Assembly (NCBI GenBank): GCA_022841445.1
Contig: JALHRM010000001.1
Span: 259,777-323,776, forward strand
DNA from: Candidatus Saccharimonadota bacterium
GTDB lineage: Bacteria > Patescibacteriota > Saccharimonadia > Saccharimonadales > UBA10212
Length of the DNA stretch: 64,000 nucleotides
Reading direction: 5' to 3'
Shown here: positions 272 to 27,954 of the stretch, one piece after another
Layout of the letters: each line of letters begins with the position of its first letter
How positions within the stretch are numbered: the first letter of the stretch is position 1
The notes under the pieces: generated by a model
The model's database searches: none
Told to the model about the DNA's origin: nothing
The model's input: the letters and a program-made list of their open reading frames with translations, nothing else
Position numbers and translations under genes: made by a program

Positions 272-433
272 AGACAAAACGTCTCACTTGCCCTACAAAA
301 CCCAACCACTTTCGCCTCAGCTAGTTATTTCATTTGTCACAATATATACGAATATGTCTACACCCGAAAAAGCTGGCTGGAACTAAATTGACTAGCTTTT
401 ATTTAGAGGCATTTGAAAGTGTTTTGTCCCTAG

Positions 434-1506: not shown

Positions 1507-2001
1507 CTATTGAGCTGGGTCTTGTTCGGCGGCCTCTTCTTGAACTGCATCAGTATAAACAAGAATTGTTTTTTTATAGTCTGTGCCCACGATGCTAAAC
1601 CCAAGTTTATCAAAATCAACGGTTCGGTCTACTTCAACAGTAAAGTTCTTCTTTGGGTTCTTCGTCTCTACTTTGAAATTAATTAAGCCACTTTTAGGAA
1701 CAGTGGGATTACCAAGCATTGTGGCTGCTTGGACGTCTTCTCCAATTCTTGAAACGATGTAATCGCTTACTGCCTGCTGCACTGCAAAGTACTGCTCGTC
1801 AAAAAGCAGATCCTGTAAGCGACCTTCATCGTTTAGGTATATTCGGTGAGAGTCACCATCTTCCACTGATTGGTTACGTAAAGTGCCGGTATTACCAATA
1901 ATAGCGATAAGGATGAATAATCCAACGCCTAACATTAACAGAAGTAGAATTAATTTTTGCTTTGGAGTTAAGTTTGAAAAGCGATTCTTTATATTTTGCA
2001 T
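1507..2001 (-). CDS. Bitopic membrane protein, last gene of the T4SS-like operon (positional analogue of VirB8/PrgL-type components; no motif recognised)
   Basis: 164-aa ORF with one N-terminal TM helix (LILLLLMLGVGLFILIAIIG) followed by a ~120-aa soluble domain. It starts 14 nt downstream of the 698-aa hydrolase gene on the same strand. Confidence 0.6.
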   Translation of the reverse strand: MQNIKNRFSNLTPKQKLILLLLMLGVGLFILIAIIGNTGTLRNQSVEDGDSHRIYLNDEGRLQDLLFDEQYFAVQQAVSDYIVSRIGEDVQAATMLGNPTVPKSGLINFKVETKNPKKNFTVEVDRTVDFDKLGFSIVGTDYKKTILVYTDAVQEEAAEQDPAQ

Positions 2002-2014
2002 AATTTAAGCGCCT

Positions 2015-4111
2015 TTAGTTACATTGCCTACATTCTACGTCAGTGAGCAGACCGACAGCCTGGTAGGCTTGTATTGGGTTTATTGCTTTTTCGACGCTGT
2101 ATTCTCTATCATCCGAGCCTGGACCATATAGTTCGAGGTGAATGTGTGTTGGCCCTGCCCAGTCTTTGACACCTCCAATTACATCTCCGGCATTCACGGT
2201 TTGCCCTTCACTGATGGTATCTGAAGGTGATATATGACGAAGTGTCCATAAGCGACCTTCGGTATCACGAACGCTTATCGTACCTCCGAACACCTGCCCG
2301 GTCGCCTTTTGACCAGGGTTTGGGTCGGGGCTTAGCCTTGCGATTTTACCGCTTGCAGGCGCCTTTACGGGACTGTTCGCTGGCGCGAACCAGTCAATTG
2401 CCATATGGAACTTCTGCCCCGAGCTGTTTGGTTGTCCCTCTGCATCGGCGTAGCCGTAACTTCCTCCAGGAGGTTTTGTGTGCAAGATAGGCACAAGACC
2501 ACCTATTGCACTAGCAGACCCACAGCCACTATCGTCGCCCGTTGCACTCGCTGGAGTGTCTGCGCTTGCACCTCCACCCCCGCTGACGCCTGCGTCACCT
2601 AGCAGTTTACGGACACCGTCTTCGATAGTTCTTATATATCTCGGTGTGTCATTCTCAACTGAGGGGGCGTAACGGTTCATGATTTGGCTTATGGTTGTGA
2701 AGTTCGATGGTGGTCCGAGGTACAGCCTTCCCGAAAGAAGCTTGTAATGCTCTTCCATGGCTACGATGATACTGGGATACGGCCCAAATCGTGTTGAAGC
2801 GTTTGAATTATGAGTAACCGCCCAAAAGTTGTATTGTCCCGGCCCTCCCGGCCCGACCAGATCGGTGCGTACGGTGCCAAACTGATACTCTACCTGTGCA
2901 ATAACAACGGGGATGGTTGGGTTAATGTCGTACTGTTGACCAAAACGCACAAAATCATCAGCAAAAGGTATGAGTGGCGAAGAAGGCCATCCTTTTTGTA
3001 TGTATTCTTTTATGGCGGCAGAAAGCGCTGCGGTATCATCAAGCGCAGGGAATCGTACTCCGGTTAATGGCCCTCCGTCGGATGGTCCCCCCAGGCTGGC
3101 ATCACAACAAGCGGGTCCGTCTGGGTCATACAAGGGCGCTTCTAATTCCAAAAGAATGTCGTTTATATTGCTATTTGCGGCAGCCCCCTGCGCTGATTCT
3201 GCGGAAGCTTCGGGTGCGCAGGTGCTATTTGCTGGATCATCACTAGCAACTCCTTGTGCAATAAATTCATAAACCTGTTTAGATAGTCCGGCAATGCGCT
3301 GTTTTGTGGTGGCGAGGTCGGGGTTTTTATTGGTTAAAACCACCAATACGTAGGTTTTATCCCCTGCTTTTACAATTGCTGCATCATGAGACTTACCATT
3401 GCTTACCGAATGAATTTCACCGGTTTTGTTACCAAATTCGGTACCCGGCGGCAGCCCGGCAGGTATTTTTTCTTTATGGTACTGCTGCTTTAAAAGTGCA
3501 TACATCTCTTGTGATGCTCCCTTGCTTAACCACGTTTCTTTGGCGATGTCGCTCATTAGTTTGGCGACATCGTTAGCATTGGTTCTAAGTGGTGAAAAAA
3601 ACGTGCCGGTATAGCCGGGTACTTTTGAATACTTCTTGCGCGCCTCATCTAAAAAGGTCTTGCCACAAATATTGTCGGAGTAAATGACCATTTTATTTAA
3701 ACATTCAGCTACCGTTGCCGACTGGCCGGTGGGAATGCTAGGCCAGATAGCATTTACACAAGCCTGGTTGCCATTGCAGTCACTTACGTTTTCTTCATGC
3801 TGTTCGGCAACATCTTTTAATACAAAACTTTGATTGAAGCGCAAGTTACCGGCCTCCCGTTCTTTGAACAGGTATTCAGCAACAAACAGTTTATACAGAC
3901 TAGCGCTCGTAAAAGACGTACCACCGTTTAGGCGGGCTTCTGAATTGTCGGTTAGGTTGCTAACCACTACTGCGGATCCTGGGTTGTTCCTGCCAAATTG
4001 AGTCACGATTTCGTTTAATGACCCAGGTGCGGCTTCGATTACGACAGTCCCTAAAAGCGTTAACATAGCAGCCGAAAATACAACTACCAAATATTTTTTT
4101 ATACGTTTCAT
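2015..4111 (-). CDS. Secreted three-module cell-wall hydrolase: class-A beta-lactamase/DD-peptidase-like domain, glucosaminidase-like domain, M23 (LytM) metallopeptidase domain
   Basis: Signal peptide MKRIKKYLVVVFSAAMLTLLGTVVIEAAPG. Serine-hydrolase triad of motifs S71-LY-K74, S145-D-N147, K229-T-G231. The central segment YDINPTIPVVIAQVEYQFGT...YNFWAVT resembles the glucosaminidase/FlgJ family. The C-terminus has M23 motifs H569-MAI-D573 and H656-I-H658. Its start overlaps the stop of the upstream gene (ATGA). Confidence 0.8.
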   Translation of the reverse strand: MKRIKKYLVVVFSAAMLTLLGTVVIEAAPGSLNEIVTQFGRNNPGSAVVVSNLTDNSEARLNGGTSFTSASLYKLFVAEYLFKEREAGNLRFNQSFVLKDVAEQHEENVSDCNGNQACVNAIWPSIPTGQSATVAECLNKMVIYSDNICGKTFLDEARKKYSKVPGYTGTFFSPLRTNANDVAKLMSDIAKETWLSKGASQEMYALLKQQYHKEKIPAGLPPGTEFGNKTGEIHSVSNGKSHDAAIVKAGDKTYVLVVLTNKNPDLATTKQRIAGLSKQVYEFIAQGVASDDPANSTCAPEASAESAQGAAANSNINDILLELEAPLYDPDGPACCDASLGGPSDGGPLTGVRFPALDDTAALSAAIKEYIQKGWPSSPLIPFADDFVRFGQQYDINPTIPVVIAQVEYQFGTVRTDLVGPGGPGQYNFWAVTHNSNASTRFGPYPSIIVAMEEHYKLLSGRLYLGPPSNFTTISQIMNRYAPSVENDTPRYIRTIEDGVRKLLGDAGVSGGGGASADTPASATGDDSGCGSASAIGGLVPILHTKPPGGSYGYADAEGQPNSSGQKFHMAIDWFAPANSPVKAPASGKIARLSPDPNPGQKATGQVFGGTISVRDTEGRLWTLRHISPSDTISEGQTVNAGDVIGGVKDWAGPTHIHLELYGPGSDDREYSVEKAINPIQAYQAVGLLTDVECRQCN

Positions 4112-7100
4112 TGTGGGCAGTCCGCCACTGTCGTTAGCCTGTATTGGTCGGCTATCCGAACATGGAAGTGATGATGGTGATTATCTTCGTATTGCATTAC
4201 GCCGGGCAACCCTTTGCTTCTAACATATGTATTAAAATCACTTTGAACAGCAGGGTCATTATAGAATATATACTTTATAATTCCAGTGTCTGCAAACATT
4301 CTGCCCAGGTCTTTACTGGCTTGCACGCTACCGGCAGTATTGGCCGCTATTTGTCCTTGGGTGGTGATGTCTACATCCACACCGTTTTCGTGACTGGCAT
4401 GCCCAGCCGCCGCGTTAAGGTCGCCAACTATAAGTTTATTACTCGGGTATTTTTGATTCCAGGCCTTAGACACTGTATAAATTGCATTTACCAGTTCTTT
4501 GCTACCACAGCGCTCAGTAGGCGGTGTGTTGGGGCTAAAGACGTATTCTCCCCCTGGGGCTTCGGGCATTCTGTAATAATTTGTGCCGGCAACCTGCGTA
4601 GCACCCGGCAAGGATGATAAGCCAACAGAGCCCTTAAAGTAAGGGGTTAGCTCATCATTTACGACTTTTAATGCAACGGCAGGACTGGCTGCTATGTTAT
4701 TTGTTGAATCATACCCATCGCAGAAAGGCGCAAATGTTCCACTAAGGCACTCTGGTGTGACATTACGGTCAACAAGAGTAAACCCTGTAGCTGGATCTCT
4801 CATCAGCAGTGATTTGCGCAGTGGCCCTGTTGCATTAATAATGGTGTTGTATTCACTTGAACCCTGGTTGTGGCCAACCAGAACGGCAACATCGGCTAGG
4901 ATTTCTTGGATGGTCTTATCTGGGTTGCGTTGTCTCGCTACAGCTTCAACTTGAGCGAGGTTAAAATTGGCGAACTGCACGCCGGCCATCCCAATTTGCC
5001 AGAGACCGGCGCTACAAAGCTCAAGAATATTACTCTTTTGCCCTTGACTGCCACAGTTTGAATTACGGTGTGGGTTGCCACCGGGAATGATATTTCCGTT
5101 AAGTATTCCTTCCTTTAGCGACCACCAGGTGACGCGCGCTGCCATTGCTGCTTGTTCATTTGCGCTGCCAGGAAGCCGCGCCATCACATCGTCTTTTATG
5201 TACTTCACCCACCTTACCTCATTAGGATTTAGCGTATAGCCGTTTAGTGAAGTCAGGCTTACATCTCCCGTAGACTCTTCGGCTGTGTCGGCGGCTGGCT
5301 GGCTATTATCGCTGTAACCATCGTCGTCGGTGTACCCAAACCGCGTACCTATGCCACCGCGGACGGCATTGTCTCTTAACCAGCAGTTATGGATTGTTTT
5401 TGCAGTGGTGTCTTCTTGGTCGGGGTCACCAACGGCGGCACCCACTTTCTCGTATACGTAGTCATACCAGTCATTGCTGTTTGTCATAAGTTCCCACGTA
5501 AGTTCAGTGTCTGGTACTCGTGCAACTCCCAGAACCGCTTGGATATTGCTCCCTTGTTTTGGCTGGCTCGTTATGGGTTTAAGCTGGTCACATTCTGGCG
5601 GCCAGTCATAGCTGTCAATGGCGGCTACTTTTGCCCCAGCGTAGGAGTCATTAGTGACCGGCTGGGCGCCGACTCGATTAAATAACATACCTGGTAGTAC
5701 ATTTTTGATGTTAGACAGACTAGAACCTACTACGCTAAAAACGTCCGGCGTGTCGTTTATTCCGTCTGCTGTGCTAAACAAAGTTCTTGAAGCGAGTGAG
5801 TCGTACTGATTAAGTGAAAAGTACCTTTCATTAAAACTCAGGCTGCGGTCGGCCTCGGCGCCAGCAAGGAGCTGTTGAGCATGGTTGGCGCTGGTTGCGG
5901 TTGTGACGGCTGCTCCGAGCATGCGGCTAGTGGATTCGGCGGTATAGGCGGCACCCTGCACGATGTAGTTCATGAACACCCCCCCGGGTTCTAGGCCACT
6001 CAAGATTGGACCCGCACCCAAAAATGCTGCAATCTTGTTGGCGATAATTGACATAAGTCGAGCAAGGTCATCATCAAGACCTAGAACTGCAATAAATTTT
6101 TCAACCACAAAATTTACGGCTCCACCAAAGACTTCAGCTATCTTTAAAATTCCATCGAATATTTTCCCAAAAAACGAATCCCTTGCTGCCCGTACAGCTT
6201 CCGCAATCGGGCCTGTAATTTTGCCGATGGTACTCAGGTAGGCATCTTCCAGTTGTTCGGCGCGATTTGCTGATCCAATAACCGCATCCGGACAGAGGTA
6301 GTGGTACTGCTTATCGTTTTCAATGATTTCTTTTTCGTTTTCAGGGTTAGAAAGTTTAGCTTGATGGTCTGGTTCGCAGTAAGCCGTCCTTCCGAGATTA
6401 CTTGGTCCAGCCGCATATACCTTGCCGGGTTCTGATGCTTCAGCGGATCGAACCGGAGAACTACCAGCCACCGCCACCGCCCAGGCTTCACTATTTGATG
6501 CATTCCCGAGTACTTGCATAAAAGCATCAAATTCTTCTGGAGTGACGTCGCCCTTTATAATTTGGTCTCTGGATGTTTTCATCACCTGATACAAGCCGAC
6601 GGCTTGCGTTGCTTTAGCGACTTGGACGGTTTTGGCGATTGCTCCGCTTCGTATGTTGCTGTCGATTTTTTCGATAAGGTCGACGGTCGCTGCAATGTTT
6701 ACGACACTGAATGCGACGCCGGTGCGTTTAAGTATTTCGCTCAGGAACTCGGCGGTTTTATACGTCTCCGTACCAGTTGTGGTGGTTTGGGTACCGTCTG
6801 GGTTATCGGTTGTCCGAGACGTAGTAATGCTCTGGTCGTTTGTTCCGTTATCACCCACCACTGTTGTGGTGTCTGCTCTATGCTGTGGATCACTCGGGTC
6901 GTCACTCTTTTTACAATCAGACAATCCAAACAGGCAACGGACTAGCTTGCCGTTCTTTGTGCTTTCTGGCAGGGCTTTGTCGAGTATTTTGTTGCGGATA
7001 TTGGTGCGTCTTTCTTCTAGATTGCTACGTGTTTTTTCAAAAAACCGCCAGTCCCTGACACCGGTCATATTTTGAATCGACTTTCTAAGCATGCGCCGCT

Positions 7101-8121
7101 CAAACACTTTATAGAACCGGGTTTCGTCGTGCACAATTTGTTTTATTTGTTTTCTGGCGGCTTTATCATCATTAAAAACCGAAGCATTAACAAACTCGCG
7201 GAGTCTACCATTCATTTGATTGACATCAATATCTGCTACACCTTGGCGTTGAGCTGGAGTTAATCCCAGTTGGTCTGGCCCAAGCACTGCACGGGCTGTT
7301 TTGAACCTTGTATCAAATGTAACTACGGCTGGCCTGAATATAATCTGATTGCCTTCCCTCCTAGCCACGCTAGCAAATTTTATTCCATGCTTTTCAAAAA
7401 CCTGCCGCTCAAACGCCGAAGTCTTTGTGTTTGAACCACGTAGTACCCTGTACCACTTGTAAACGGGGTTGCCTGTATCAACGTTATTTGCACGGAGTAT
7501 TAGGTTGTCAGGGTCGTTGGGTCTGTCTAGGTTTGGGCTGTCGCCTATATCGGCAAGGCGCATTATCATATACGTTCGTATGTATTCATTCGATCTGCCG
7601 TCTAGGTTCCCATTCAGCCTCGCAAACGTACGGGCATCGATATTTTGCAGTAGCGTATCTAATTTGAAAACGTTCAAAAAACCTAAAATTGCAGCTAAAA
7701 CAATAATCAGCGATATTCCGCCGGCACCCAAACTTACAAGCAAACCACGCCGCTTAAGGAAGCTGCGTTTTTCGCCTTTTTTTTCGTCCGAGGCGGTGTA
7801 GTTTATCTGTTCTTCGGGCGGTGTATTTTCCGCATCGCCGTCTTCGTTTTCTTTTTGGTCTAGTTCGTCTGGGTCAAGGTGCTTTTTATCTTTCAGCCCA
7901 GCACCTTCGTTCTCGGTCTCGGCCTGTCTTTTGGCTACTGCTGGGTGGGCAGCATCATCGTATACTTGCTGGCCTGATGGCTTTACTGCACCTGGCTGGC
8001 TTTGTTTTGAACGAAGATGGTCAATTCCCTCTTGACTTGCGGTCGGGATTTGCTCCAACGGATCCTCGGACTTTCTCAGTCTTCCTTGTTTTGATCGAGG
8101 GTCTTGCGTTGACTGAGCCAT
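4108..8121 (-). CDS. Giant (1337 aa) membrane-anchored T4SS-associated protein with a C-terminal LAS/M15-type (VanY-like) peptidase domain; PrgK/TraG-type wall-remodelling analogue
   Basis: Acidic N-terminal ~130 aa, then a single TM (LLVSLGAGGISLIIVLAAILGFLNVF) and a >1100-aa extracytoplasmic region. The C-terminus carries GHASHENGVDVDI ... HHHHFHVRI (H-x-D and H-x-H zinc ligands of M15/LAS peptidases). A weak SLT-like stretch WWSLKEG...SAGLWQIG is tentative only. Confidence 0.75.
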   Translation of the reverse strand: MAQSTQDPRSKQGRLRKSEDPLEQIPTASQEGIDHLRSKQSQPGAVKPSGQQVYDDAAHPAVAKRQAETENEGAGLKDKKHLDPDELDQKENEDGDAENTPPEEQINYTASDEKKGEKRSFLKRRGLLVSLGAGGISLIIVLAAILGFLNVFKLDTLLQNIDARTFARLNGNLDGRSNEYIRTYMIMRLADIGDSPNLDRPNDPDNLILRANNVDTGNPVYKWYRVLRGSNTKTSAFERQVFEKHGIKFASVARREGNQIIFRPAVVTFDTRFKTARAVLGPDQLGLTPAQRQGVADIDVNQMNGRLREFVNASVFNDDKAARKQIKQIVHDETRFYKVFERRMLRKSIQNMTGVRDWRFFEKTRSNLEERRTNIRNKILDKALPESTKNGKLVRCLFGLSDCKKSDDPSDPQHRADTTTVVGDNGTNDQSITTSRTTDNPDGTQTTTTGTETYKTAEFLSEILKRTGVAFSVVNIAATVDLIEKIDSNIRSGAIAKTVQVAKATQAVGLYQVMKTSRDQIIKGDVTPEEFDAFMQVLGNASNSEAWAVAVAGSSPVRSAEASEPGKVYAAGPSNLGRTAYCEPDHQAKLSNPENEKEIIENDKQYHYLCPDAVIGSANRAEQLEDAYLSTIGKITGPIAEAVRAARDSFFGKIFDGILKIAEVFGGAVNFVVEKFIAVLGLDDDLARLMSIIANKIAAFLGAGPILSGLEPGGVFMNYIVQGAAYTAESTSRMLGAAVTTATSANHAQQLLAGAEADRSLSFNERYFSLNQYDSLASRTLFSTADGINDTPDVFSVVGSSLSNIKNVLPGMLFNRVGAQPVTNDSYAGAKVAAIDSYDWPPECDQLKPITSQPKQGSNIQAVLGVARVPDTELTWELMTNSNDWYDYVYEKVGAAVGDPDQEDTTAKTIHNCWLRDNAVRGGIGTRFGYTDDDGYSDNSQPAADTAEESTGDVSLTSLNGYTLNPNEVRWVKYIKDDVMARLPGSANEQAAMAARVTWWSLKEGILNGNIIPGGNPHRNSNCGSQGQKSNILELCSAGLWQIGMAGVQFANFNLAQVEAVARQRNPDKTIQEILADVAVLVGHNQGSSEYNTIINATGPLRKSLLMRDPATGFTLVDRNVTPECLSGTFAPFCDGYDSTNNIAASPAVALKVVNDELTPYFKGSVGLSSLPGATQVAGTNYYRMPEAPGGEYVFSPNTPPTERCGSKELVNAIYTVSKAWNQKYPSNKLIVGDLNAAAGHASHENGVDVDITTQGQIAANTAGSVQASKDLGRMFADTGIIKYIFYNDPAVQSDFNTYVRSKGLPGVMQYEDNHHHHFHVRIADQYRLTTVADCPQ

Positions 8122-8133
8122 CGTTTATTCTTT

Positions 8134-10035: not shown

Positions 10036-10056
10036 AATTTACTCCAAAGTTTGTGT

Positions 10057-11064: not shown

Positions 11065-11090
11065 AAATAATTACCCACCTTAGATCACGC

Positions 11091-12521: not shown

Positions 12522-12581
12522 ACCCTACTAGTATCTGACAGATGACCGCTTATGGCAATATGGCGCTACATATTTTTCAAT

Positions 12582-12615
12582 AAAAACAGCCCGGTATGTG
12601 CGACGGGCTGTTTTA
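12582..12615 (-). terminator. Rho-independent terminator (bidirectional hairpin) between the 473-aa gene and the PrgI-like gene
   Basis: AAAAACAGCCCG-gtatgtgcga-CGGGCTGTTTTA: a 7-bp GC stem flanked by an A-run and a T-run, 19 nt downstream of the stop at 12634. Confidence 0.7.
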
Positions 12616-12633
12616 TCTGATCAGTGCAGTGCT

Positions 12634-14055: not shown

Positions 14056-14206
14056 AGTATTTATAAAATCCTTTTGTAGTATCTTTGTTTTTGTTGTTTG
14101 ATGATACTAAATTAGCACAGATTATGTAAATTGTCAATATTGTTTACTGGAATAAACAAAAAACAGCAGATTTTAAAGTATGAGTCGCAATTCTATAAAT
14201 TTATGC

Positions 14207-16447
14207 CTAGTACGGTTTTCTTCGGTCTTGTTGTCTTCTTTTTGCTTCCTGGGAAGCAGAGGGACGTCCGGCGAGGGGGTCTGACGGTGGTGGTGCAACG
14301 CCACCTGGAGACCCATAACCCCCTCCAGGGATGCCGCCACTTGCAGTTGGTGTTGTGCCTCGACCGTAAAGCTCCTTGGTCTTTACATCAACCAGTTCTC
14401 GGTAGTCTTTCACAGTTCGTGGACCATCTACGGTATCTACAGCATGCCCAGCATACAGTTTTGCAAGACCATCCCCTATTCCCCCATTCTTTTTTGGATC
14501 GCCGAGTTCTGATTTACTACCAAACAGACCTGCCGCCGCCTGTGGGTTAAGCGCCACAAATTGGTCTATTACTTTGCGGGCGGATTCTTGCGTGTCATCA
14601 TCTAGAGTCGTTAAGCTACGTACAAAGCCGTGGTGTGAGCCAAGCATTTCTTGAGCCGTCATCGCATTGAGGCCTACTCCACCCTCAATGCCGTTTCTAT
14701 CTAGTACTGCTTGAGTCCTGGCGTCTCCATCACCATACATGGCAACTTGCATAGCATCTTCTCGTGACATTTTCATTAGTTGCGGAACCATGTCACGGGC
14801 ACTGGAGTGAACGGCTTTATAGAGTCGATCATCCCTACCAAGTGCTGCCCTGTACGCCTCTACTGTACCTTCTTGATCGTCCCTTAACTTCCCTTTATCG
14901 TCATACATTAAATCTCTCAATGTGCCGAATTCACCATTTTGAATAAGCTGAGCAATTGCTGCTTCTTTTTGCTCGTGATCGCCGTTTCTTGCCAAATCAA
15001 CTAATGCATCCGCAGACCTGCCTCCGTGCTTGACGGTTTGTGCACCAGCTTGTGACGCCAAAGCTGCCTTGCGCTTGCTCTCTTCTTCGTTGTGGTGAAT
15101 AACTGAATCTTGCAGACCTCTCTCCGTAAACTTACCGCTAGTAGCCCTGGCTCGTAGGTTTTGCATGCTGTATTTCTTTTTCCTCGGGTCGTATAGCTCG
15201 GTACCTCGTTCTGCGCGGTTTCGGTCTCTGCGCCCTTCAAGCGCTTTGCGGCCTTTGCCGGATAAGCCTTGGCTCGCGCCGTTAGCAACGTTGGCCAAGG
15301 CGCCGAGTGCTTGGCCGCCCAGGGCGAATGTTTTGGATATCAAAAAGAACGGTGCGAAAAATCCGACGAATATAAACAGTGTTTTTAGTATTCCAAAGGA
15401 TGCATCTACTTCACCAAATACCGCTCCGGGCCATAGTGCAAACATACCTACGTCCACATCAGTAAGAGTGCTTGATGTAGAAATCTTGGCAAATATCCGA
15501 CCAGCAGCAATCATCGCAATAATAAGCGGGAACATAATTAGTAATTTGGTAAATGTTTCGTACCATAACTTCCAGTATTTGCTAGTACCGGGTAGTATCC
15601 AAAAGGCTAAAGCTAGCGGAGCGAAAATAAGGCTCAGAATAATAAGGATTTGTCGGAGTACAAGCACAAAATAGCCGATTATCAGCGCGACTACTGCGCC
15701 AAACGCTACAGGTGTCAAAAACCCGAATAGTAGCGCAGCTGCTGCTACTCCAAGCCCGCCAACAAGCAGGATTGATTGGAATACTCCACCACTACTTTCA
15801 TACGTATCTGTACCTACAAGATTCTTGAGGGTCATTTCCTGCGGCCCCCCGAACGGGGCATACATAAGGTCACCAATACCGTTACCTACGGCATTTACCA
15901 TGTCAATAACGAATATAAGCAACGGCCAAGAAACCTGTATCAGTATTACGGCAATCAGTAGTTTAGGAAGCGCTCGTTTGAGTGAATAGGCATCGAATGG
16001 CCCCCAATCCACCGCCTGAGAAATTACCATAACCAGCATTACTATTATCAGTACTACTGTAGTAAGGTTTCTGATAATGCTCCATGCTCTCTGTATGCTG
16101 TTAACATCATCCGTTTTATAGCTATTTATGTCGAAATCAAGAATTTTGGTAATACCAGCATCGAGAGTATCAATCGTGCCGTCCAATCCTCTTAGCGCGC
16201 CGCAAAGCAGGAATCCAAATCCAAAAGTGGCTTTGGATTCACAGGTTTCGTCTTCTGGTGCGTCTTCGGGCGGGTCGGCAGGTGGAGTTTGTGCAAAGTG
16301 GACACCGACGGGGTTGCTTAAAGCGACAGAAGTGACCGGTTCGCTGCCTTGTGCTTTAGCTGTAGCCGGATTTATGAACGAAGGCATCAGACTCAAAGTC
16401 AGCACGGGCAAAAAAAGCCCAAGCATGATTTTGAAGCGAGTACTCAT
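14207..16447 (-). CDS. VirB6/TrbL/PrgH-like polytopic T4SS membrane protein with a ~330-aa hydrophilic C-terminal domain
   Basis: 746 aa. Signal-like N-terminus, then at least 6 TM helices between aa ~130 and 400 (e.g. LLIAVILIQVSWPLLIFVIDMV, FGAVVALIIGYFVLVLRQILIILSLIFAPLALAFWILP). The hydrophilic tail ends in the Gly-rich GGIPGGGYGSPGGVAPPPSD. It is the first gene of the minus-strand T4SS set. Confidence 0.7.
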   Translation of the reverse strand: MSTRFKIMLGLFLPVLTLSLMPSFINPATAKAQGSEPVTSVALSNPVGVHFAQTPPADPPEDAPEDETCESKATFGFGFLLCGALRGLDGTIDTLDAGITKILDFDINSYKTDDVNSIQRAWSIIRNLTTVVLIIVMLVMVISQAVDWGPFDAYSLKRALPKLLIAVILIQVSWPLLIFVIDMVNAVGNGIGDLMYAPFGGPQEMTLKNLVGTDTYESSGGVFQSILLVGGLGVAAAALLFGFLTPVAFGAVVALIIGYFVLVLRQILIILSLIFAPLALAFWILPGTSKYWKLWYETFTKLLIMFPLIIAMIAAGRIFAKISTSSTLTDVDVGMFALWPGAVFGEVDASFGILKTLFIFVGFFAPFFLISKTFALGGQALGALANVANGASQGLSGKGRKALEGRRDRNRAERGTELYDPRKKKYSMQNLRARATSGKFTERGLQDSVIHHNEEESKRKAALASQAGAQTVKHGGRSADALVDLARNGDHEQKEAAIAQLIQNGEFGTLRDLMYDDKGKLRDDQEGTVEAYRAALGRDDRLYKAVHSSARDMVPQLMKMSREDAMQVAMYGDGDARTQAVLDRNGIEGGVGLNAMTAQEMLGSHHGFVRSLTTLDDDTQESARKVIDQFVALNPQAAAGLFGSKSELGDPKKNGGIGDGLAKLYAGHAVDTVDGPRTVKDYRELVDVKTKELYGRGTTPTASGGIPGGGYGSPGGVAPPPSDPLAGRPSASQEAKRRQQDRRKPY

Positions 16448-16455
16448 TTGTTTTG

Positions 16456-16514
16456 ACTATAGCACAACAGTTTTGAGCGGACAATTTACCGGCTACAGTA
16501 AATTTTGGTATAGT
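16456..16514. promoter_or_regulatory. Back-to-back divergent promoters for the T4SS machinery genes (minus) and the pilin operon (plus)
   Basis: Plus strand: TTTACC (16485-16490), 18-nt spacer, extended -10 TGgTATAGT (16506-16514), 11 nt before ATG 16526. Minus strand: TTGTCC (rc of 16479-16484), 17-nt spacer, TGcTATAGT (hexamer rc of 16456-16461), 8 nt before ATG 16447. Neither ATG has an obvious SD. Confidence 0.45.
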
Positions 16515-16525
16515 TAGCCATTAGA

Positions 16526-17173
16526 ATGTTGCTTAATAAAATATGGGCACGAAATTTTATGAACGTTGTACTGGCGGTGCTGCTTGTGGCCGGCTTTACT
16601 GCCACAGCAGTAACGTTTCAAATGGGGCTTGCTGAAGCCGCACCTTCGAAATGCTATGCCAGAAACGCGGCGGGTAAAGTCCAGCACTCTTCTTGTAATG
16701 GCTTAACGGCAGCCCAGCGCCGCATAAATGACAAATGCTTTTTAGCGCAAACAATCGGTGGTGCATATACCCAGGCGGGTGATCTTGGTAGTGGAGTCTG
16801 TAATTCTCTGCAACGGCAGGCTCAAGCCGCACCAGCACCTGGAGGAGGTGCTCCAGACGAAGATCAAACGTTGGGTGCAGGTGGCACTGCTGGCTGTAGT
16901 GGCACGGTAAATTTACAGAACTGCGTAAAAAATAATCCAATTGTTACTAAAGTGCTTCGCCCCTTGGTGTTGTTTTTGAGTGCGGTGGTTGCGATTGTAA
17001 TCATAGGTAGTTTAATTGTTGCGGGTATCCAGTATTCTGCAGCACAGGACAACCCTCAGATGGTTCAAAAATCGAAAGATCGTATCCGTAATGCGCTTAT
17101 TGCGCTTGGAGCGTTTATGTTCGCTCTTGCCGGTTTACAGTACTTAATCCCCGGGGGCATAATTAGCTTATGA
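16526..17173 (+). CDS. VirB2/TrbC-like T4SS pilin paralog 1 of 7 (largest, 6 Cys)
   Basis: Signal/TM segment FMNVVLAVLLVAGFTATAVTFQMGLAEA. A 6-Cys, Gly/Ala-rich exposed segment. C-terminal two-helix core LVLFLSAVVAIVIIGSLIVAGIQYSAAQDNPQMVQKSKDRIRNALIALGAFMFALAGL. Confidence 0.65.
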   Translation: MLLNKIWARNFMNVVLAVLLVAGFTATAVTFQMGLAEAAPSKCYARNAAGKVQHSSCNGLTAAQRRINDKCFLAQTIGGAYTQAGDLGSGVCNSLQRQAQAAPAPGGGAPDEDQTLGAGGTAGCSGTVNLQNCVKNNPIVTKVLRPLVLFLSAVVAIVIIGSLIVAGIQYSAAQDNPQMVQKSKDRIRNALIALGAFMFALAGLQYLIPGGIISL

Positions 17174-17589
17174 TCACGTACGCTTTGGCCTGGCTGGTCA
17201 CCACTTTCCCAAGTTTTGCTCAGACTCCGGCGGTATGTGAGAAAAAAGGTTTTCTTGGACTGCCGGCGTGGTATGAATATCTACCCGATGCCGCCTTCAA
17301 GGCGGACGGCGTGGGGGGGTGCTTAATTGATTTAAAGTTCGATGGTCCGGCTGGTCCGAATGTGCTTATACCTATTGGGTTAGCCGTACTAGATGGCTTG
17401 CTAAGAATAGCTGGAGTCGTGGCTGTTATTTTTGTAATCGTTGCTGGATTTAACTTCATAACTTCGGCTGGTAGTCCAGATAAAGCCGCTTCAGCACGGC
17501 AACAAGCTATTAATGCTCTTGTTGGTGCGGCAATTGCCATTAGCGCAGCAGCAATCGTGCAGTTTGTCGGTGGAAGGATTGCTGGATGA
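17170..17589 (+). CDS. VirB2/TrbC-like T4SS pilin paralog 2 of 7
   Basis: ATGA overlap with paralog 1. Signal peptide ...FPSFAQ/T, then 2 Cys. Core GVVAVIFVIVAGFNFITSAGSPDKAASARQQAINALVGAAIAISAAAIVQFV. Confidence 0.7.
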   Translation: MITYALAWLVTTFPSFAQTPAVCEKKGFLGLPAWYEYLPDAAFKADGVGGCLIDLKFDGPAGPNVLIPIGLAVLDGLLRIAGVVAVIFVIVAGFNFITSAGSPDKAASARQQAINALVGAAIAISAAAIVQFVGGRIAG

Positions 17590-17873
17590 TTGAATACTTG
17601 GCGTACCAGATATTTTTTGGAGGCCCAATTAAAGACTCTCTGCCGCAAGTTGCTGCCGACGAAGGAGCATTCGCCAGAGGCCTTAATATTATTTTTGTTC
17701 TGGCGGGTGCAATCACTGTTTTGGTCATAACTGTAGCCGGGCTATTCTACGTACTTTCTCAGGGCGACCCAAGCAAAACATCGCGTGCTAAAAATGCCAT
17801 TATTTACGCAGCGGTCGGGTTGGTTATTATTGTTCTATCTGGAGTCATCGTTAACTTTGTGTTTCAGTTTTAA
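17586..17873 (+). CDS. VirB2/TrbC-like T4SS pilin paralog 3 of 7 (short; no signal peptide, no Cys)
   Basis: ATGA overlap with paralog 2. The 95-aa product is essentially the core only: LNIIFVLAGAITVLVITVAGLFYVLSQGDPSKTSRAKNAIIYAAVGLVIIVLSGVIVNFV. Confidence 0.65.
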   Translation: MIEYLAYQIFFGGPIKDSLPQVAADEGAFARGLNIIFVLAGAITVLVITVAGLFYVLSQGDPSKTSRAKNAIIYAAVGLVIIVLSGVIVNFVFQF

Positions 17874-18283
17874 TGATGAGATGGATAACTAAAAAACTAG
17901 CCATCGTTTTAGCAGCAGTGTTCAGTTTATTGTGTTTATCTGGGTCGGTCGCCTATGCTGGTTTTAACCCTTTGCAAGATGCCTGTAGTGTCCCAAACTC
18001 CGATCAAAGTGCTGTCTGTAAAGAAAAAACTCGCACTGGTAACGATGATCCCATTGCTGGGGATGATGGCATTTTGATAAGAGGCACTCGCGTCATTGCT
18101 ATTGTTGTTGGAGTAGCTGCTACCATCATGATTATTGTTGGCGGCCTAATGTTCATACTGTCCGACGGTAATAGTGATAAGGCGGCGAATGGTAGAAAAA
18201 CTATCATTTACGCAATTGTTGGTATTGTTATTGCGGTGCTCGCCGGCCCTGTTACGCAATTTTTGACAAATCGGGCTCTTTAG
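17873..18283 (+). CDS. VirB2/TrbC-like T4SS pilin paralog 4 of 7
   Basis: TAATG overlap with paralog 3. Signal peptide ending VAYA/G, with Cys pair ACSVPNSDQSAVC. Core IAIVVGVAATIMIIVGGLMFILSDGNSDKAANGRKTIIYAIVGIVIAVLAGPV. Confidence 0.75.
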   Translation: MMRWITKKLAIVLAAVFSLLCLSGSVAYAGFNPLQDACSVPNSDQSAVCKEKTRTGNDDPIAGDDGILIRGTRVIAIVVGVAATIMIIVGGLMFILSDGNSDKAANGRKTIIYAIVGIVIAVLAGPVTQFLTNRAL

Positions 18284-18329
18284 ACATAAGCTACTACAGT
18301 AAACCTAAAAAGTGTAATTTTAAGTAACT

Positions 18330-18728
18330 ATGCGAAACAAAACACTCACAATTTTTGCAACCTTAGCACTTATCGCGACTGTATTGTTCCCCGTTTTCAA
18401 TTACGGGATGGCTAATGCTGGATGCCCGGCGAACGCCAGCCCAAAGGATGCCGTTAATTGTGGTGTACAGGCGGCTGGGGGTGATACTTCTGACCCTGAG
18501 ACAAAGATAAATAGTGCCATTGCAGCTGCTATAAACATTTTTTCTTTCGTGGTTGGTTTTGCAGCAGTCATCATGATTATTGTTGGCGGCTTACGGTACA
18601 TCTTGAGCAACGGCGATAGTCAAAAAGTTTCCAGTGCTAAAAACGCTATTATTTACGCCATTGTTGGTCTGGTTATCGTAGCCTTGGCACAAGTGATTGT
18701 GCGGTACGTTTTTAGCCGGGCAACTTAA
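18330..18728 (+). CDS. VirB2/TrbC-like T4SS pilin paralog 5 of 7
   Basis: Signal peptide ending MANA/G, with Cys pair GCPANASPKDAVNC. Core INIFSFVVGFAAVIMIIVGGLRYILSNGDSQKVSSAKNAIIYAIVGLVIVALAQVIVRYV. Confidence 0.75.
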   Translation: MRNKTLTIFATLALIATVLFPVFNYGMANAGCPANASPKDAVNCGVQAAGGDTSDPETKINSAIAAAINIFSFVVGFAAVIMIIVGGLRYILSNGDSQKVSSAKNAIIYAIVGLVIVALAQVIVRYVFSRAT

Positions 18729-18804
18729 AGCCTCTCCGCCATTGCTTAGCATAGGCGTGTTGTGATATAAGTGTTGTCAGAAGTTAATAAATAAGGAACT
18801 TTAT

Positions 18805-19254
18805 ATGCAAAAAATAAAACAATTTGCAGCCATGGTTGCCGCAAGTATCGCACTTGTTGGGGCTTCCCTGTTTGGGGTAGTGGCTGTTGCTTACGCTGGC
18901 TCAGGCGCCAATATTGATGCCAACCTATGTCAAGGAATAAGTCTTGATGCTAACACCGTGAATACCGCAGGTACTGCACCGGCGGACACATGTAGCGAAG
19001 CGGGCGCCAATGATCGTGTTAACAATATCATCAAAACGATCATAAATATCTTTTCACTAGTTGTGGGTGTTGTATCCGTCATCATGATCATTATTGGTGG
19101 CTTTAAGTACATTACCAGTGGTGGTGAAAGCAGTAACGTTACAAGTGCCAAGAATACTATCCTCTACGCTATCATTGGCCTTGTCGTCGTAGCATTGGCA
19201 CAGATTCTCGTACGATTCGTCTTTAGTCGGGCTACTTCAACTGCTGGACCATAA
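18805..19254 (+). CDS. VirB2/TrbC-like T4SS pilin paralog 6 of 7
   Basis: SD AAGGA lies 8 nt upstream. Signal peptide ending VAYA/G, with Cys pair LCQGISLD...ADTC. Core INIFSLVVGVVSVIMIIIGGFKYITSGGESSNVTSAKNTILYAIIGLVVVALAQILVRFV. Confidence 0.75.
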   Translation: MQKIKQFAAMVAASIALVGASLFGVVAVAYAGSGANIDANLCQGISLDANTVNTAGTAPADTCSEAGANDRVNNIIKTIINIFSLVVGVVSVIMIIIGGFKYITSGGESSNVTSAKNTILYAIIGLVVVALAQILVRFVFSRATSTAGP

Positions 19255-19281
19255 GCTAACAAAAGTGGTATAATATATTTT

Positions 19282-19755
19282 ATGCCCAATAAAATACGAA
19301 ATTTCTTGGTTGGCACAACGACCGTATTCATTATTGCCGCCCCTGTGGCTGCCTCTGCTCAGACTAATCCTACTACAACTCCTGCACCCCCGACGAATGA
19401 CCCAAACACTAGCCTAACTGTCGAGCAAGTTTCCCCTGATATTGTTCGCGGGCTGTGCCAAGGTATTAATTTGCAGGTAGGTACCGATTGCAGTCAAACC
19501 GAATTAAGTGATGAAGAAGCGACCGAGCGTGTTAACGCGCTCATACGCACGATAATTAATATCTTCTCACTGGTGGTTGGCGTGGTCGCGGTAATTATGA
19601 TCATTATCGGCGGCCTTAAATACATTACCAGCGGTGGTGATAGTAGTAATGTAACGGGCGCCAAAAACACCATCTTGTACGCTATCATTGGCCTTGTAAT
19701 TGTGGCGCTATCTCAGGTTATTGTTAGGTTTGTGCTCAGTCGAGTGACGCAGTAG
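19282..19755 (+). CDS. VirB2/TrbC-like T4SS pilin paralog 7 of 7
   Basis: It has its own extended -10, TGgTATAAT (hexamer 19269-19274), 7 nt before the ATG, suggesting a leaderless transcript. Signal peptide ending AASA/Q, with Cys pair LCQGINLQVGTDC. The core is 60/72 identical to paralog 6 by hand alignment. Confidence 0.75.
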   Translation: MPNKIRNFLVGTTTVFIIAAPVAASAQTNPTTTPAPPTNDPNTSLTVEQVSPDIVRGLCQGINLQVGTDCSQTELSDEEATERVNALIRTIINIFSLVVGVVAVIMIIIGGLKYITSGGDSSNVTGAKNTILYAIIGLVIVALSQVIVRFVLSRVTQ

Positions 19756-20333: not shown

Positions 20334-20454
20334 GTTCCCCTCCAAAGGTTTAACTTTCGTTACAAAACTTTTTATCTTAGAGCCAGTATAGCTTAGTATT
20401 ATCAGAGAGCGCAAGGTGGGTGCGCTGTTATTTACAACAGTAATCCTATGCGAT

Positions 20455-25328: not shown

Positions 25329-25332
25329 AAGT

Positions 25333-27935: not shown

Positions 27936-27954
27936 TTTTATTAGTTTAAGCGAG

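What the first reader, a model, noticed from the sequence alone, without database searches (positions are those of the whole stretch)
1507..19755. Resident, origin-proximal Gram-positive-type T4SS-like locus with no coupling protein, relaxase or integrase in view
Sequence shows the following. Eight co-oriented minus-strand genes are present: VirB6-like 746 aa, an acidic 473 aa protein, PrgI/VirB3-like 476 aa, a 335 aa protein, VirB4 633 aa, a 1337-aa hydrolase, a 698-aa hydrolase and a 164-aa bitopic protein. They diverge from a seven-gene pilin operon. VirB4 has Walker A GAGKS and Walker B ILIVDEAW. The genes from the PrgI-like gene to the 164-aa gene are tightly packed (gaps 12-26 nt, one ATGA overlap). 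Established knowledge: the order polytopic protein, VirB3-like, VirB4, multi-domain wall hydrolase, small bitopic protein mirrors prgH-I-J-K-L of pCF10 and related monoderm conjugation systems. Those systems also need a VirD4-type coupling ATPase and a relaxase. Neither is present here, nor is any integrase, transposase or att-type boundary. The flanks are housekeeping genes: dnaN-recF directly on one side, and hsp20, comF and tRNAs on the other. Inference: this is a domesticated chromosomal apparatus doing something other than plasmid/ICE transfer. Candidate roles are cell-cell contact, a filament for attachment, effector or hydrolase delivery, or DNA/nutrient uptake (comF lies 700 nt beyond the pilin operon). 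If the organism is an epibiotic CPR bacterium, this would be a prime candidate for the host-interaction machine.
Basis: partly seen in the sequence, partly recalled or inferred. Interest (0 to 1): 0.85.

Follow-up and report, generated by a model that had tools for sequence, protein, structure and literature searches.

The report
Saccharibacterial chromosomal type IV secretion locus
This is the origin-proximal type IV secretion and pilin gene cluster found throughout Saccharibacteria. It has already been described and shown essential for epibiotic growth in a cultured relative, so the finding is real and correctly read but not new.

Summary
Eight co-oriented minus-strand genes (1507-16447) diverge from seven VirB2-like pilin genes (16526-19755). 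They lie between dnaN-recF on one side and hsp20-comF-tRNA-Ser on the other. No coupling ATPase, relaxase, integrase or bracketing repeat occurs anywhere in the 64 kb.

Profile and structure tests support VirB4, a detached VirB4 N-domain (TrsD-like, 335 aa), PrgI/VirB3, VirB6 and the pilins. The 164-aa protein could not be shown to be PrgL/VirB8-like.

The organism is a Saccharimonadales (Saccharibacteria) bacterium. Gene order matches SEML1_0003-0022 of Southlakia epibionticum ML1 gene for gene. That T4SS was shown to be essential by Tn-seq (Wang 2023) and surveyed across Patescibacteria by Quinonero-Coronel 2025. That survey already reported the missing relaxase, the origin proximity and the pilin arrays. 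McLean 2020 had reported the locus earlier.

One thing I did not find in the papers I searched: VirB4 is 81-85% identical across 80 species, yet the genes just downstream of it are a hypervariable, domain-shuffled set of envelope-degrading enzymes. This window carries a beta-lactamase-fold + M23 combination seen in only 1 of 89 proteins.

The parts
1..430 (+). 3' end of dnaN (flank, origin marker)
   Evidence: PF02768 DNA_pol3_beta_3, 3.3e-16. Found next to recF in 61/80 related loci. dnaA follows dnaN in 5/6 loci with enough flank.
434..1504 (+). recF (flank), convergent with the last T4SS-operon gene, 2 nt apart
   Evidence: SMC_N 1.9e-20. Present in 66/80 loci, 6.6-10.6 kb downstream of the virB4 start.
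1507..2001 (-). 164-aa bitopic protein with one N-terminal TM helix; lineage-specific accessory; PrgL/VirB8 likeness not shown
   Evidence: TM helix at 17-35. No Pfam or NCBIfam hit. Only itself among 5.8e9 proteins. One homologue in 65 loci. AF2 single-sequence model has pLDDT 51 and is uninformative.
2015..4111 (-). 698-aa exported three-part cell-wall enzyme: class-A beta-lactamase/PBP-like fold, a middle domain, and M23 metallopeptidase
   Evidence: Beta-lactamase2 1.6e-28 (residues 48-260) and Peptidase_M23 1.5e-10 (568-663). Motifs S71xxK, S145DN, K229TG, H569xxxD, H656xH. The middle region 319-536 is shared with neighbours of Phage_lysozyme2-type proteins. The lysozyme assignment of the middle domain is inferred.
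4108..8121 (-). 1337-aa bitopic protein directly after virB4: cytoplasmic N-tail, one TM helix, about 1000-aa scaffold of unknown fold, C-terminal LAS-type (M15/M74-like) peptidase head
   Evidence: TM helix at 127-145. Peptidase_M74 2e-4 at 1206-1257, below cutoff. HxH at 1318. C-terminal 175 aa are 60% identical to L072, whose body is only 20% identical. The ML1 orthologue SEML1_0007 has a C-terminal Hedgehog/DD-peptidase domain.
8134..10035 (-). VirB4 ATPase, lacking the usual N-terminal domain
   Evidence: NCBIfam conju_CD1110, 349.5 bits against a cutoff of 325, covering profile positions 176-733 of 752. P-loop_TraG 1e-27. PDB 4AG5 VirB4, 6.7e-52. 81-85% identical in 80 species.
10057..11064 (-). 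335-aa TrsD-like protein: P/Q-rich tail plus the detached VirB4 N-terminal domain
   Evidence: NCBIfam TrsD 5e-7 (residues 96-215). It also matches positions 2-132 of the CD1110 VirB4 profile, 1.8e-6. This complements the VirB4 match, which starts at profile position 176. 57-68% identical in 39 orthologues.
11091..12521 (-). 476-aa PrgI/VirB3-like membrane protein with a long P/Q-rich C-terminal extension
   Evidence: PrgI PF12666: window E 0.0096 for the full protein and 5e-4 for the N-terminal 120 aa, both below cutoff. All 71/71 orthologue N-termini match, best 3.9e-14. Two TM helices at 19-68.
12634..14055 (-). 473-aa acidic protein in a variable accessory slot; function unknown
   Evidence: Net charge -16 and no TM helix. 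No family hit. No homologue in 80 loci. The slot between the VirB6-like and PrgI-like genes is empty in 22 of 52 loci and holds unrelated ORFs in the rest.
14207..16447 (-). 746-aa extended VirB6-like polytopic protein: signal/TM helix, short ectodomain, about 5-6 TM core, cytoplasmic tail
   Evidence: The core profile's only PDB hit is TrwI/VirB6 (7O3V_F), E 0.0099. TrbL PF04610 is found in 10/53 orthologues. AF2 model pLDDT 76; the top six Foldseek PDB hits are all TrwI, prob up to 0.99, TM 0.36-0.44. The window protein itself has no Pfam hit.
16448..16525 (.). 78-nt divergent intergenic region with back-to-back promoter-like sites
   Evidence: Minus strand 16484-16456 TTGTCC-17-TATAGT (TG) and plus strand 16485-16514 TTTACC-18-TATAGT (TG). 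These are consensus matches only. The region as a whole is not enriched for such sites.
16526..19755 (+). Array of seven VirB2-like T4SS pilin genes: 16526-17173, 17170-17589, 17586-17873, 17873-18283, 18330-18728, 18805-19254, 19282-19755
   Evidence: All seven exceed the PF18895 gathering score. Each ends in two TM helices. C-terminal 75-aa identity ranges from 23 to 77%; the last three are tandem paralogues at 61-77%. Weak match to the Mycoplasma ICE pilin-like family Mbov_0395, 8.6e-8.
19857..20633 (-). Hsp20 (conserved flank)
   Evidence: HSP20 7.8e-18. Same position in 31/80 loci; the count is limited by flank length. Corresponds to SEML1_0020.
20416..21156 (+). ComF/GntX-family phosphoribosyltransferase (conserved flank)
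   Evidence: TIGR00201 comF 3.9e-21, below cutoff. Same position as SEML1_0021. Followed by tRNA-Ser at 21208-21297.

Best explanation
This is the chromosomal, vertically inherited type IV secretion system of Saccharibacteria, the orthologue of SEML1_0004-0019 of Southlakia epibionticum. It derives from the monoderm (MPF-FATA, CD1110-like) conjugation machinery but has lost the link to DNA processing.

Shown by sequence:
- A split VirB4 ATPase: the TrsD-like 335-aa protein plus the 633-aa protein.
- A PrgI/VirB3-like anchor and an extended VirB6-like polytopic protein. Together with VirB4 these form the cytoplasmic-membrane platform.
- Seven Sec-type VirB2-like pilins, transcribed divergently.
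- Two large exported or bitopic multi-domain cell-wall enzymes and a small bitopic protein, co-transcribed after virB4.

Inferred mechanism: VirB4 powers extraction and polymerisation of the pilins on the VirB3/VirB6 platform into a short pilus or conduit at the epibiont-host contact. The attached hydrolases open the epibiont's own peptidoglycan, and probably the host's, so that the conduit can reach the host envelope. The apparatus then passes material between epibiont and host. This could be Sec-dependent proteins going outward, in the Ptl manner, or host-derived molecules coming inward. It does not transfer a relaxase-bound plasmid strand.

Origin proximity gives high gene dosage. The function is indispensable in the one relative tested.
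For: Component assignments:
- VirB4.
- TrsD/VirB4 N-domain.
- PrgI.
- VirB6.
- Pilins.
- Hydrolase domains and motifs.

Taxon and conservation: 573 tblastn-confirmed VirB4 relatives. The best 80 species are all Saccharimonadales/Saccharibacteria or unclassified MAGs at 81-85% identity.

Synteny: dnaN-recF ... virB4, p335, PrgI, VirB6, pilins, hsp20, comF is conserved, with dnaA next to dnaN.

Purifying selection: VirB4 (about 83%) is far more conserved than RecF (about 50%) in the same genomes.

No mobility or DNA-processing genes: none in the window and none among the families returned for 131 ORFs surveyed from the variable slot downstream of virB4 in the related loci.

Literature:
- The ML1 locus has identical gene order and nearly all genes are essential (PMC10633639).
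- The Patescibacteria-wide survey reports a distinct VirB4 clade sister to MPF-FATA, rare relaxases, a distant and non-essential T4CP, pilin arrays of 2-11 genes and dnaA/dnaN proximity (PMC12102498).
- Reviews propose a conduit role.
Against: - No experiment exists for this organism, and the substrate is unknown even in ML1 ('completely unknown', PMC11665869).
- A VirD4-like gene may exist elsewhere in the genome. Only 64 kb of a contig of at least 464 kb was visible.
- No VirB8-like component was identified here.
- The PrgI and VirB6 assignments for the window proteins themselves fall below curated cutoffs and rest on orthologue profiles.
- Pilus formation has never been observed.
- The hydrolases could serve only the epibiont's own wall.
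Confidence: 0.8

Rival explanations
1. DNA or nucleotide uptake machine, analogous to the Helicobacter pylori ComB T4SS. The pilus and channel import host DNA, which feeds ComF/ComEC-type processing or nucleotide salvage.
For: - Like ComB, the system has VirB2/3/4/6-like parts but no T4CP or relaxase.
- comF is a conserved neighbour.
- The idea is raised in PMC11665869 and in McLean 2020.
Against: - In ML1, deleting comEC abolishes transformation but not viability, while the T4SS is essential. Its essential role is therefore not ComEC-dependent uptake.
- This organism encodes CarAB, PyrB, a dihydroorotase-like protein and PurA, which lessens the need for nucleotide import.
- comF is separated from the pilins by an oppositely oriented hsp20.
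Confidence: 0.15
2. An ordinary integrative conjugative element, or its recent remnant, whose coupling protein, relaxase and integrase lie outside the window.
For: - VirB4 belongs to a conjugative family: CD1110, with a second match to Mycoplasma ICE VirB4.
- GC content is slightly higher (0.49-0.51) than in the flanks (0.44).
- A tRNA-Ser 3'-end duplicate lies 1.7 kb beyond the pilins.
Against: - The insertion context is identical in about 60 species-level genomes whose RecF is only about 50% identical.
- No integrase or relaxase occurs in the 64 kb.
- The tRNA repeat brackets 138 nt, not the locus, and there is no copy on the recF side.
- Relaxases are rare in Patescibacteria (109 in 103 genomes).
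Confidence: 0.02
3. A surface filament and autolysin operon only. The pilins form an adhesive fibre and the hydrolases remodel the epibiont's own wall, with no translocation of substrates.
For: - The pilin array is variable, as expected for surface-exposed adhesins.
- No substrate-recognition ATPase (T4CP) is in view.
- The hydrolases carry their own Sec/TM signals.
Against: - Saccharibacteria already use two type IV pili for adhesion and motility (PMC12206443).
- Retention of the VirB6 channel component and extreme conservation of VirB4 suggest more than fibre assembly.
- The enzymatic heads in relatives include activities with no obvious role on the epibiont's own wall: EEP nuclease/phosphatase, GDPD, alginate lyase and tyrosine phosphatase.
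Confidence: 0.1

Closest known systems
T4SS of Southlakia epibionticum ML1 (SEML1_0004-0019; Wang et al. 2023, Cell) and the Patescibacteria VirB4 clade (Quinonero-Coronel et al. 2025, Microb Genom); also the TM7x locus (McLean et al. 2020)
   Same: Gene-for-gene order: dnaN, recF, small exported proteins, multi-domain lysozyme/peptidase, a protein of over 1000 aa with a C-terminal DD-peptidase-type head, VirB4, a protein of about 300 aa, PrgI, VirB6-like, pilin array, Hsp20, ComF, tRNA-Ser. Neither cluster has a relaxase or T4CP.
   Different: - One VirB6-like gene (746 aa) here, against two (999 and 1089 aa) in ML1.
- No NTF2/VirB8-like gene here, whereas ML1 has SEML1_0012. An unrelated acidic 473-aa protein occupies that slot.
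- Seven pilins against six.
- The mid-size hydrolase carries a beta-lactamase-fold domain plus M23, instead of two lysozyme-like domains plus a cysteine protease.
- One 164-aa orphan instead of two PEGA/Ig-like proteins.
Monoderm conjugative T4SS, MPF-FATA class (pCF10 PrgH-I-J-K-L; C. difficile CTn2 CD1110 type; pGO1 TrsD)
   Same: VirB4 passes the CD1110 equivalog cutoff. It also has a TrsD-like protein, PrgI/VirB3, a polytopic VirB6/PrgH analogue and a large bitopic multi-domain wall hydrolase after virB4, like PrgK.
   Different: No T4CP (PcfC), relaxase, oriT, adhesin (PrgB) or mobile-element context. It carries VirB2-like pilins, which these systems are said to lack. It is chromosomal, fixed and essential.
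T4CP-less T4SSs: Bordetella Ptl (Sec-dependent toxin export) and Helicobacter ComB (DNA uptake)
   Same: They work without a coupling protein or relaxase. Ptl exports Sec-delivered substrates. ComB uses VirB2/3/4/6-like parts for import.
   Different: Both are diderm systems with a VirB7/9/10 outer-membrane core. Ptl also has a VirB11 ATPase. None of these is present here.
Mycoplasma ICE conjugation module (Mbov_0395 pilin-like, Mbov_0397 VirB4)
   Same: VirB4 matches VirB4_plasma at 1.4e-74. The pilin matches the Mbov_0395 pilin-like family at 8.6e-8. This is a wall-less monoderm T4SS that also pairs VirB4 with a small two-TM pilin-like protein.
   Different: Both scores are below the equivalog cutoffs. 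The Mycoplasma modules are mobile ICEs with relaxase-type functions.

Membership tests
Patescibacterial/Saccharimonadia chromosomal T4SS (SEML1_0004-0019 type) | VirB4 of the monoderm-related clade, highly conserved within the class | tested here: met
   conju_CD1110 349.5 bits (cutoff 325). 4AG5 6.7e-52. 81-85% identity to 80 Saccharimonadales species.
Patescibacterial/Saccharimonadia chromosomal T4SS (SEML1_0004-0019 type) | TrsD-like protein encoded next to virB4 | tested here: met
   p335 matches NCBIfam TrsD at 5e-7 and VirB4 profile positions 2-132 at 1.8e-6. Both are below curated cutoffs. Present in 79/80 loci.
Patescibacterial/Saccharimonadia chromosomal T4SS (SEML1_0004-0019 type) | PrgI/VirB3 family membrane protein | tested here: met
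   71/71 orthologue N-termini hit PF12666, best 3.9e-14. The window protein scores 5e-4, below the gathering score.
Patescibacterial/Saccharimonadia chromosomal T4SS (SEML1_0004-0019 type) | VirB6/TrbL-like polytopic protein | tested here: met
   Weak but consistent. The only PDB profile hit is TrwI, E 0.0099. TrbL is found in 10/53 orthologues. The top six Foldseek hits are all TrwI.
Patescibacterial/Saccharimonadia chromosomal T4SS (SEML1_0004-0019 type) | Array of sequence-divergent VirB2-like pilins within the cluster | tested here: met
   Seven of seven ORFs exceed the PF18895 cutoff. Pairwise identity is 23-77%.
Patescibacterial/Saccharimonadia chromosomal T4SS (SEML1_0004-0019 type) | Fixed chromosomal position next to dnaA-dnaN-recF, with no relaxase or T4CP in the cluster | tested here: met
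Patescibacterial/Saccharimonadia chromosomal T4SS (SEML1_0004-0019 type) | Required for epibiotic growth | not testable with these tools
   Shown only for ML1 by Tn-seq (PMC10633639).
Conjugative MPF-FATA T4SS (pCF10/CTn2/pGO1 type) | VirD4/TcpA-type coupling ATPase | tested here: not met
   None among the ORFs scanned across the 64 kb. The rest of the genome was not visible.
Conjugative MPF-FATA T4SS (pCF10/CTn2/pGO1 type) | MOB relaxase and mobile-element context (integrase, att repeats) | tested here: not met
   No such families were found. No bracketing repeats. The context is conserved across species.
Conjugative MPF-FATA T4SS (pCF10/CTn2/pGO1 type) | VirB8-like NTF2-fold bitopic protein (PrgL/TraM/TcpC) | tested here: inconclusive
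   p164 has no family hit. Its AF2 model has pLDDT 51. Proteins at the same position in relatives are PEGA/Ig-like.
Conjugative MPF-FATA T4SS (pCF10/CTn2/pGO1 type) | Multi-domain cell-wall hydrolase (PrgK/TraG/CwlT analogue) | tested here: met
   p698 has Beta-lactamase2 + M23. p1337 has a LAS-type C-terminus. Relatives carry lysozyme, SLT, CHAP, amidase and NlpC/P60 domains.
Diderm T4CP-less T4SS (Ptl / ComB) | Outer-membrane core VirB7/9/10 (and VirB11 for Ptl) | tested here: not met
   No matching families in any scanned ORF.

The most novel reading that the evidence does not exclude
The genes immediately downstream of virB4 are not mere VirB1-type helpers. They form a polymorphic, recombining arsenal that adapts the apparatus to the envelope chemistry of particular hosts.

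The evidence has two parts:
- The large bitopic protein keeps a weakly conserved scaffold but swaps its C-terminal enzymatic head. Heads seen include LAS/VanY peptidase, EEP nuclease/phosphatase, GDSL esterase, GDPD, alginate lyase, tyrosine phosphatase, CHAP and M23.
- The next gene shuffles lysozyme, SLT, amidase, CHAP, NlpC/P60, GH3, M23 and, uniquely here, a class-A beta-lactamase/PBP-fold domain.

Heads and bodies are phylogenetically decoupled: 54 of 107 head-similar pairs lack strong body similarity.

If this is right, these proteins act on the host wall and are host-range determinants or delivered effectors of the essential T4SS.
Probability: 0.3. Interest if true: 0.55.

Novelty: already known. 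Interest (0 to 1): 0.25.

Why it matters
The Saccharibacterial T4SS is one of the few molecular handles on how ultrasmall CPR bacteria live on their hosts. It is the first T4SS reported as essential for its bearer, and its substrate is still unknown.

This window adds another well-preserved instance from an environmental Saccharimonadales genome that retains pyrimidine and purine synthesis genes. It does not add the concept.

The useful residue is comparative. The cytoplasmic motor is nearly frozen: VirB4 is about 83% identical, while RecF in the same genomes is about 50%. The extracellular parts turn over fast, and the hydrolase module is mosaic. That points experimenters to the proteins most likely to touch the host.

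Tried and rejected
- **p335 against VirB4.** hhalign of the p335 family against the window-type VirB4 family found no similarity. This is expected if p335 is the missing N-domain rather than a duplicate. The NCBIfam CD1110 profile resolved it.
- **PDB profile search with the p335 family.** No hit.
- **PDB sequence search with p1337.** Only chance-level kinase hits.
- **PDB sequence search with p698.** Only marginal hits.
- **AF2 of p164.** No alignment was possible because p164 is an orphan. The single-sequence model had pLDDT 51 and was unusable, so no fold search was run.
- **AF2 of p746 with locus-derived orthologues.** Redone with database homologues.
- **Pfam survey of all 65 large ORFs.** Exceeded the size limit. 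Redone on 44.
- **Recovering the source record and its dnaA side.** The look-up of encoding contigs failed for three proteins. dnaA adjacency was checked in related loci instead.
- **ICE hypothesis.** Tested through repeats and tRNA 3'-end copies and through synteny. Rejected.
- **p473 as a split-off C-terminus of an extended VirB6.** phmmer found no similarity to 52 orthologues. Rejected.
- **Genome-wide scan for VirD4 or relaxase.** Not possible, because only the window is available.

Full report
**Observation**

The ORF table reproduces every coordinate in the finding.
- Minus strand: 1507-2001 (164 aa), 2015-4111 (698), 4108-8121 (1337), 8134-10035 (633, GTG start), 10057-11064 (335), 11091-12521 (476), 12634-14055 (473), 14207-16447 (746).
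- Plus strand: seven ORFs from 16526 to 19755.
- Spacing from the PrgI-like gene to the 164-aa gene is 12-26 nt, with one 4-nt ATGA overlap.
- VirB4 carries AKSGAGKS and ILIVDEAW.
- Flanks are the DnaN C-terminal domain (window 1-430; PF02768, 3.3e-16), RecF, Hsp20, a ComF-family protein and two tRNA-Ser genes.
- Pfam scans of 30 further ORFs between 21 and 64 kb returned only housekeeping families: ClpB-type ATPase, a thioredoxin/DsbD cluster, ValRS, TsaD, a Mur ligase, GroEL, PGI, a MacB-type ABC pair, CarAB, PyrB and PurA. No coupling ATPase, relaxase, integrase, transposase or VirB11 appeared.

**Component identities**

- **VirB4 (633 aa).** It passes the NCBIfam equivalog cutoff for the CD1110 family of monoderm conjugative VirB4 (349.5 bits against 325). 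The match covers only profile positions 176-733 of 752. A family profile hits the crystal structure of Thermoanaerobacter VirB4 (4AG5) at 6.7e-52.
- **335-aa protein.** It matches NCBIfam TrsD (5e-7) and positions 2-132 of the same CD1110 profile (1.8e-6). Together the two genes make up one canonical VirB4, so the ATPase is split. This agrees with the published remark that TrsD resembles the VirB4 N-terminus.
- **476-aa protein.** Taken alone, it matches PrgI only below the gathering score. However, all 71 orthologue N-termini match PF12666, best 3.9e-14.
- **746-aa protein.** It has no Pfam hit itself. Three lines support a VirB6 assignment:
  - A profile of 53 orthologue cores finds exactly one PDB sequence at E below 10, the VirB6 homologue TrwI of R388 (E 0.0099).
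  - Ten orthologues hit TrbL/VirB6.
  - An AF2 model (pLDDT 76, pTM 0.66) returns TrwI chains as its six best Foldseek matches, with prob up to 0.99 and TM 0.36-0.44.
  The evidence is weak but unanimous.
- **Seven pilins.** All exceed the PF18895 cutoff.
- **698-aa protein.** It has a class-A beta-lactamase/PBP-like domain with intact SxxK, SDN and KTG motifs, plus an M23 domain with HxxxD and HxH.
- **1337-aa protein.** It has a cytoplasmic tail, one TM helix, a scaffold of about 1000 aa with no recognised fold, and a LAS-type C-terminal head.
- **164-aa protein.** It is an orphan: only itself among 5.8 billion proteins. Its AF2 model is unreliable. Proteins at the same position in relatives are PEGA/Ig-like, not VirB8-like. 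The proposed PrgL equivalence is unsupported.
- **Acidic 473-aa protein.** It has no homologue in 80 related loci. It sits in a slot that is empty in 22 of 52 relatives.

**Organism and conservation**

- A scan of species-representative genomes found 573 confirmed VirB4 relatives. The best 80 are all Saccharimonadales/Saccharibacteria or unclassified MAGs at 81-85% identity.
- I ran tblastn of every window protein against those loci. It shows one conserved layout:
  - dnaN and recF lie 6.6-11.7 kb downstream of the virB4 start, on the opposite strand (61 and 66 of 80 loci).
  - p335 (79 loci), PrgI-like (75) and VirB6-like (61) lie upstream.
  - The pilin array follows (about 50 loci), then hsp20 (31) and comF (17). 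These last counts are limited only by the 10-kb flank.
- dnaA follows dnaN in five of six loci with enough flank.
- In the same genomes RecF is only 40-58% identical, so VirB4 is under unusually strong purifying selection.
- No repeat brackets the locus.
- This refutes an ICE and confirms a resident, origin-proximal apparatus.

**Comparison with the literature**

- McLean et al. 2020 described the TM7x region with VirB4, VirB6, PrgI, a gntX/comF neighbour and an array of small Sec-signal proteins. They found it conserved across Saccharibacteria.
- Wang et al. 2023 showed by Tn-seq that SEML1_0006-0019 of S. epibionticum is essential. They noted the pilins and the lack of recognisable coupling and relaxase proteins.
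- Their Tables S1 and S2 give the order dnaA, dnaN, recF, 0004, 0005, 0006 (two lysozyme-like domains plus a cysteine protease), 0007 (1114 aa, C-terminal DD-peptidase fold), VirB4, 0009, PrgI, 0011 (VirB6-like), 0012 (NTF2-like, non-essential), 0013 (VirB6-like), six pilins, Hsp20, ComF, tRNA-Ser. This matches the window gene for gene.
- Quinonero-Coronel et al. 2025 analysed 2,474 virB4 genes across Patescibacteria. They reported a distinct clade sister to MPF-FATA, TrsD, PrgI, VirB6, VirB2 arrays of 2-11 genes, rare relaxases, T4CPs mostly far from virB4 and non-essential in ML1, proximity to dnaA/dnaN, and comF proximity in one class.
- Two later reviews call the function unknown. They speculate on effector delivery, a conduit or uptake.

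**Mechanism**

- Shown: the parts list, the operon structure, the fixed position and the conservation gradient.
- From the orthologue: essentiality.
- Inferred:
  - A split VirB4 motor on a VirB3/VirB6 platform assembles Sec-delivered VirB2-like pilins into a filament or conduit at the host contact.
  - The co-transcribed wall enzymes open peptidoglycan.
  - Material is exchanged with the host without a relaxase-bound DNA substrate.
- The ComB-like uptake rival stays open. It is weakened by the viability of the ML1 comEC mutant and by the CarAB/PyrB/PurA genes in this window.

**What may be new**

- The interval between virB4 and recF is always occupied by the same architecture. A large ORF of 808-1710 aa starts 7-115 nt after virB4. 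One or two ORFs of 390-1044 aa follow, then small ORFs.
- The sequences are barely alignable:
  - 13-33% identity for the large ORF and 8-33% for the next.
  - phmmer links p1337 to only 9 ORFs from the 65 loci.
- Pfam surveys show domain shuffling.
  - Among 88 mid-size ORFs from the related loci, plus the window's p698: Phage_lysozyme2 39, GDSL 13, M23 10, Amidase_3 9, CHAP 7, SLT_2 7, C39-like 6, NlpC/P60 6, SLT 5, GH3 4. Beta-lactamase2 occurs only in the window protein.
  - Among 43 large ORFs from the loci, plus p1337: VanY 8, Exo_endo_phos 5, GDSL 3, plus single alginate lyase, tyrosine phosphatase, GDPD, CHAP and M23.
- Heads and bodies are decoupled.
  - Of 107 pairs with strong similarity over the last 230 aa, only 53 also share strong body similarity.
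  - The window head is 60% identical to L072, whose body is 20% identical.
  - The window body is 31% identical to L078 and L007, which lack any similar head.
- The identity gradient runs from the cytoplasmic motor to the exposed parts: VirB4 about 83%, p335 about 63%, PrgI N-terminus about 49%, VirB6 core about 28%, hydrolases about 15%.
- I did not find this pattern described in the searchable library. That is not proof that it is unpublished.

**Verdict**

The system is already known, and this is one more member. Interest is low to moderate. The residual value lies in the polymorphic hydrolase module and the unusual beta-lactamase-fold domain.

Noticed in passing
L001-L080, interval between virB4 and recF; window 1507-8121: The module downstream of virB4 is hypervariable and domain-shuffled, with swapped C-terminal enzymatic heads. 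Meanwhile VirB4 stays 81-85% identical. The beta-lactamase-fold domain of the window's 698-aa protein occurs in 1 of 89 proteins surveyed.
   Followed up: partly
window 21298-21454 and 25172-25332: Each of two tRNA genes, Ser-tga and Arg-gcg, is followed within about 160 nt by three things. First, a shared 57-nt element (84% identical; the first 26 nt are identical). Second, a small hairpin whose stem sequence differs between the copies but still pairs. Third, a copy of that tRNA's own 3' end (18 nt exact for tRNA-Ser). These look like att-type scars of small tRNA-targeting elements, or an unknown tRNA-linked RNA. Rfam has no match, and the element is absent from the 80 related loci.
   Followed up: partly
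window 50291-58424: A dihydroorotase-like amidohydrolase, CarA, CarB, PyrB and PurA are present. Saccharibacteria are usually described as lacking de novo nucleotide synthesis, so this environmental lineage keeps at least part of it.
   Followed up: no
window 8134-10035 compared with 434-1504, across L001-L080: VirB4 (81-85% identity) is much more conserved than RecF (40-58%) or the DnaN C-terminus (44-67%) in the same genomes. Part of this may reflect selecting the loci by VirB4 similarity.
   Followed up: partly
window 18805-19254 and 8134-10035: The pilin weakly matches the Mycoplasma ICE 'Mbov_0395 pilin-like conjugal transfer protein' (8.6e-8). VirB4 matches the Mbov_0397 VirB4 family (1.4e-74). 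Pilin-like partners of VirB4 may therefore not be unique to Patescibacteria among monoderm systems.
   Followed up: no
window 25333-28515: A cluster of three exported thioredoxin-fold proteins, including a DsbD/CcdA-TM-redoxin fusion of 574 aa, lies 5.5 kb from the pilin array. Six of the seven pilins contain cysteines. No link was tested.
   Followed up: no
L066 (DALYDK010000005.1): This is the one locus where the pilin genes lie about 11 kb downstream of virB4 rather than upstream. No recF, dnaN or VirB6-like hit falls within the flank. It is a rearranged exception to the otherwise fixed synteny.
   Followed up: no
window 14207-16447 compared with orthologues in L001-L079: The VirB6-like protein keeps a conserved TM core of about 350 aa. 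Its N-terminal ectodomain varies from about 100 aa here to about 600 aa in relatives, and its cytoplasmic tail also varies. Orthologues are typically about 990 aa.
   Followed up: partly
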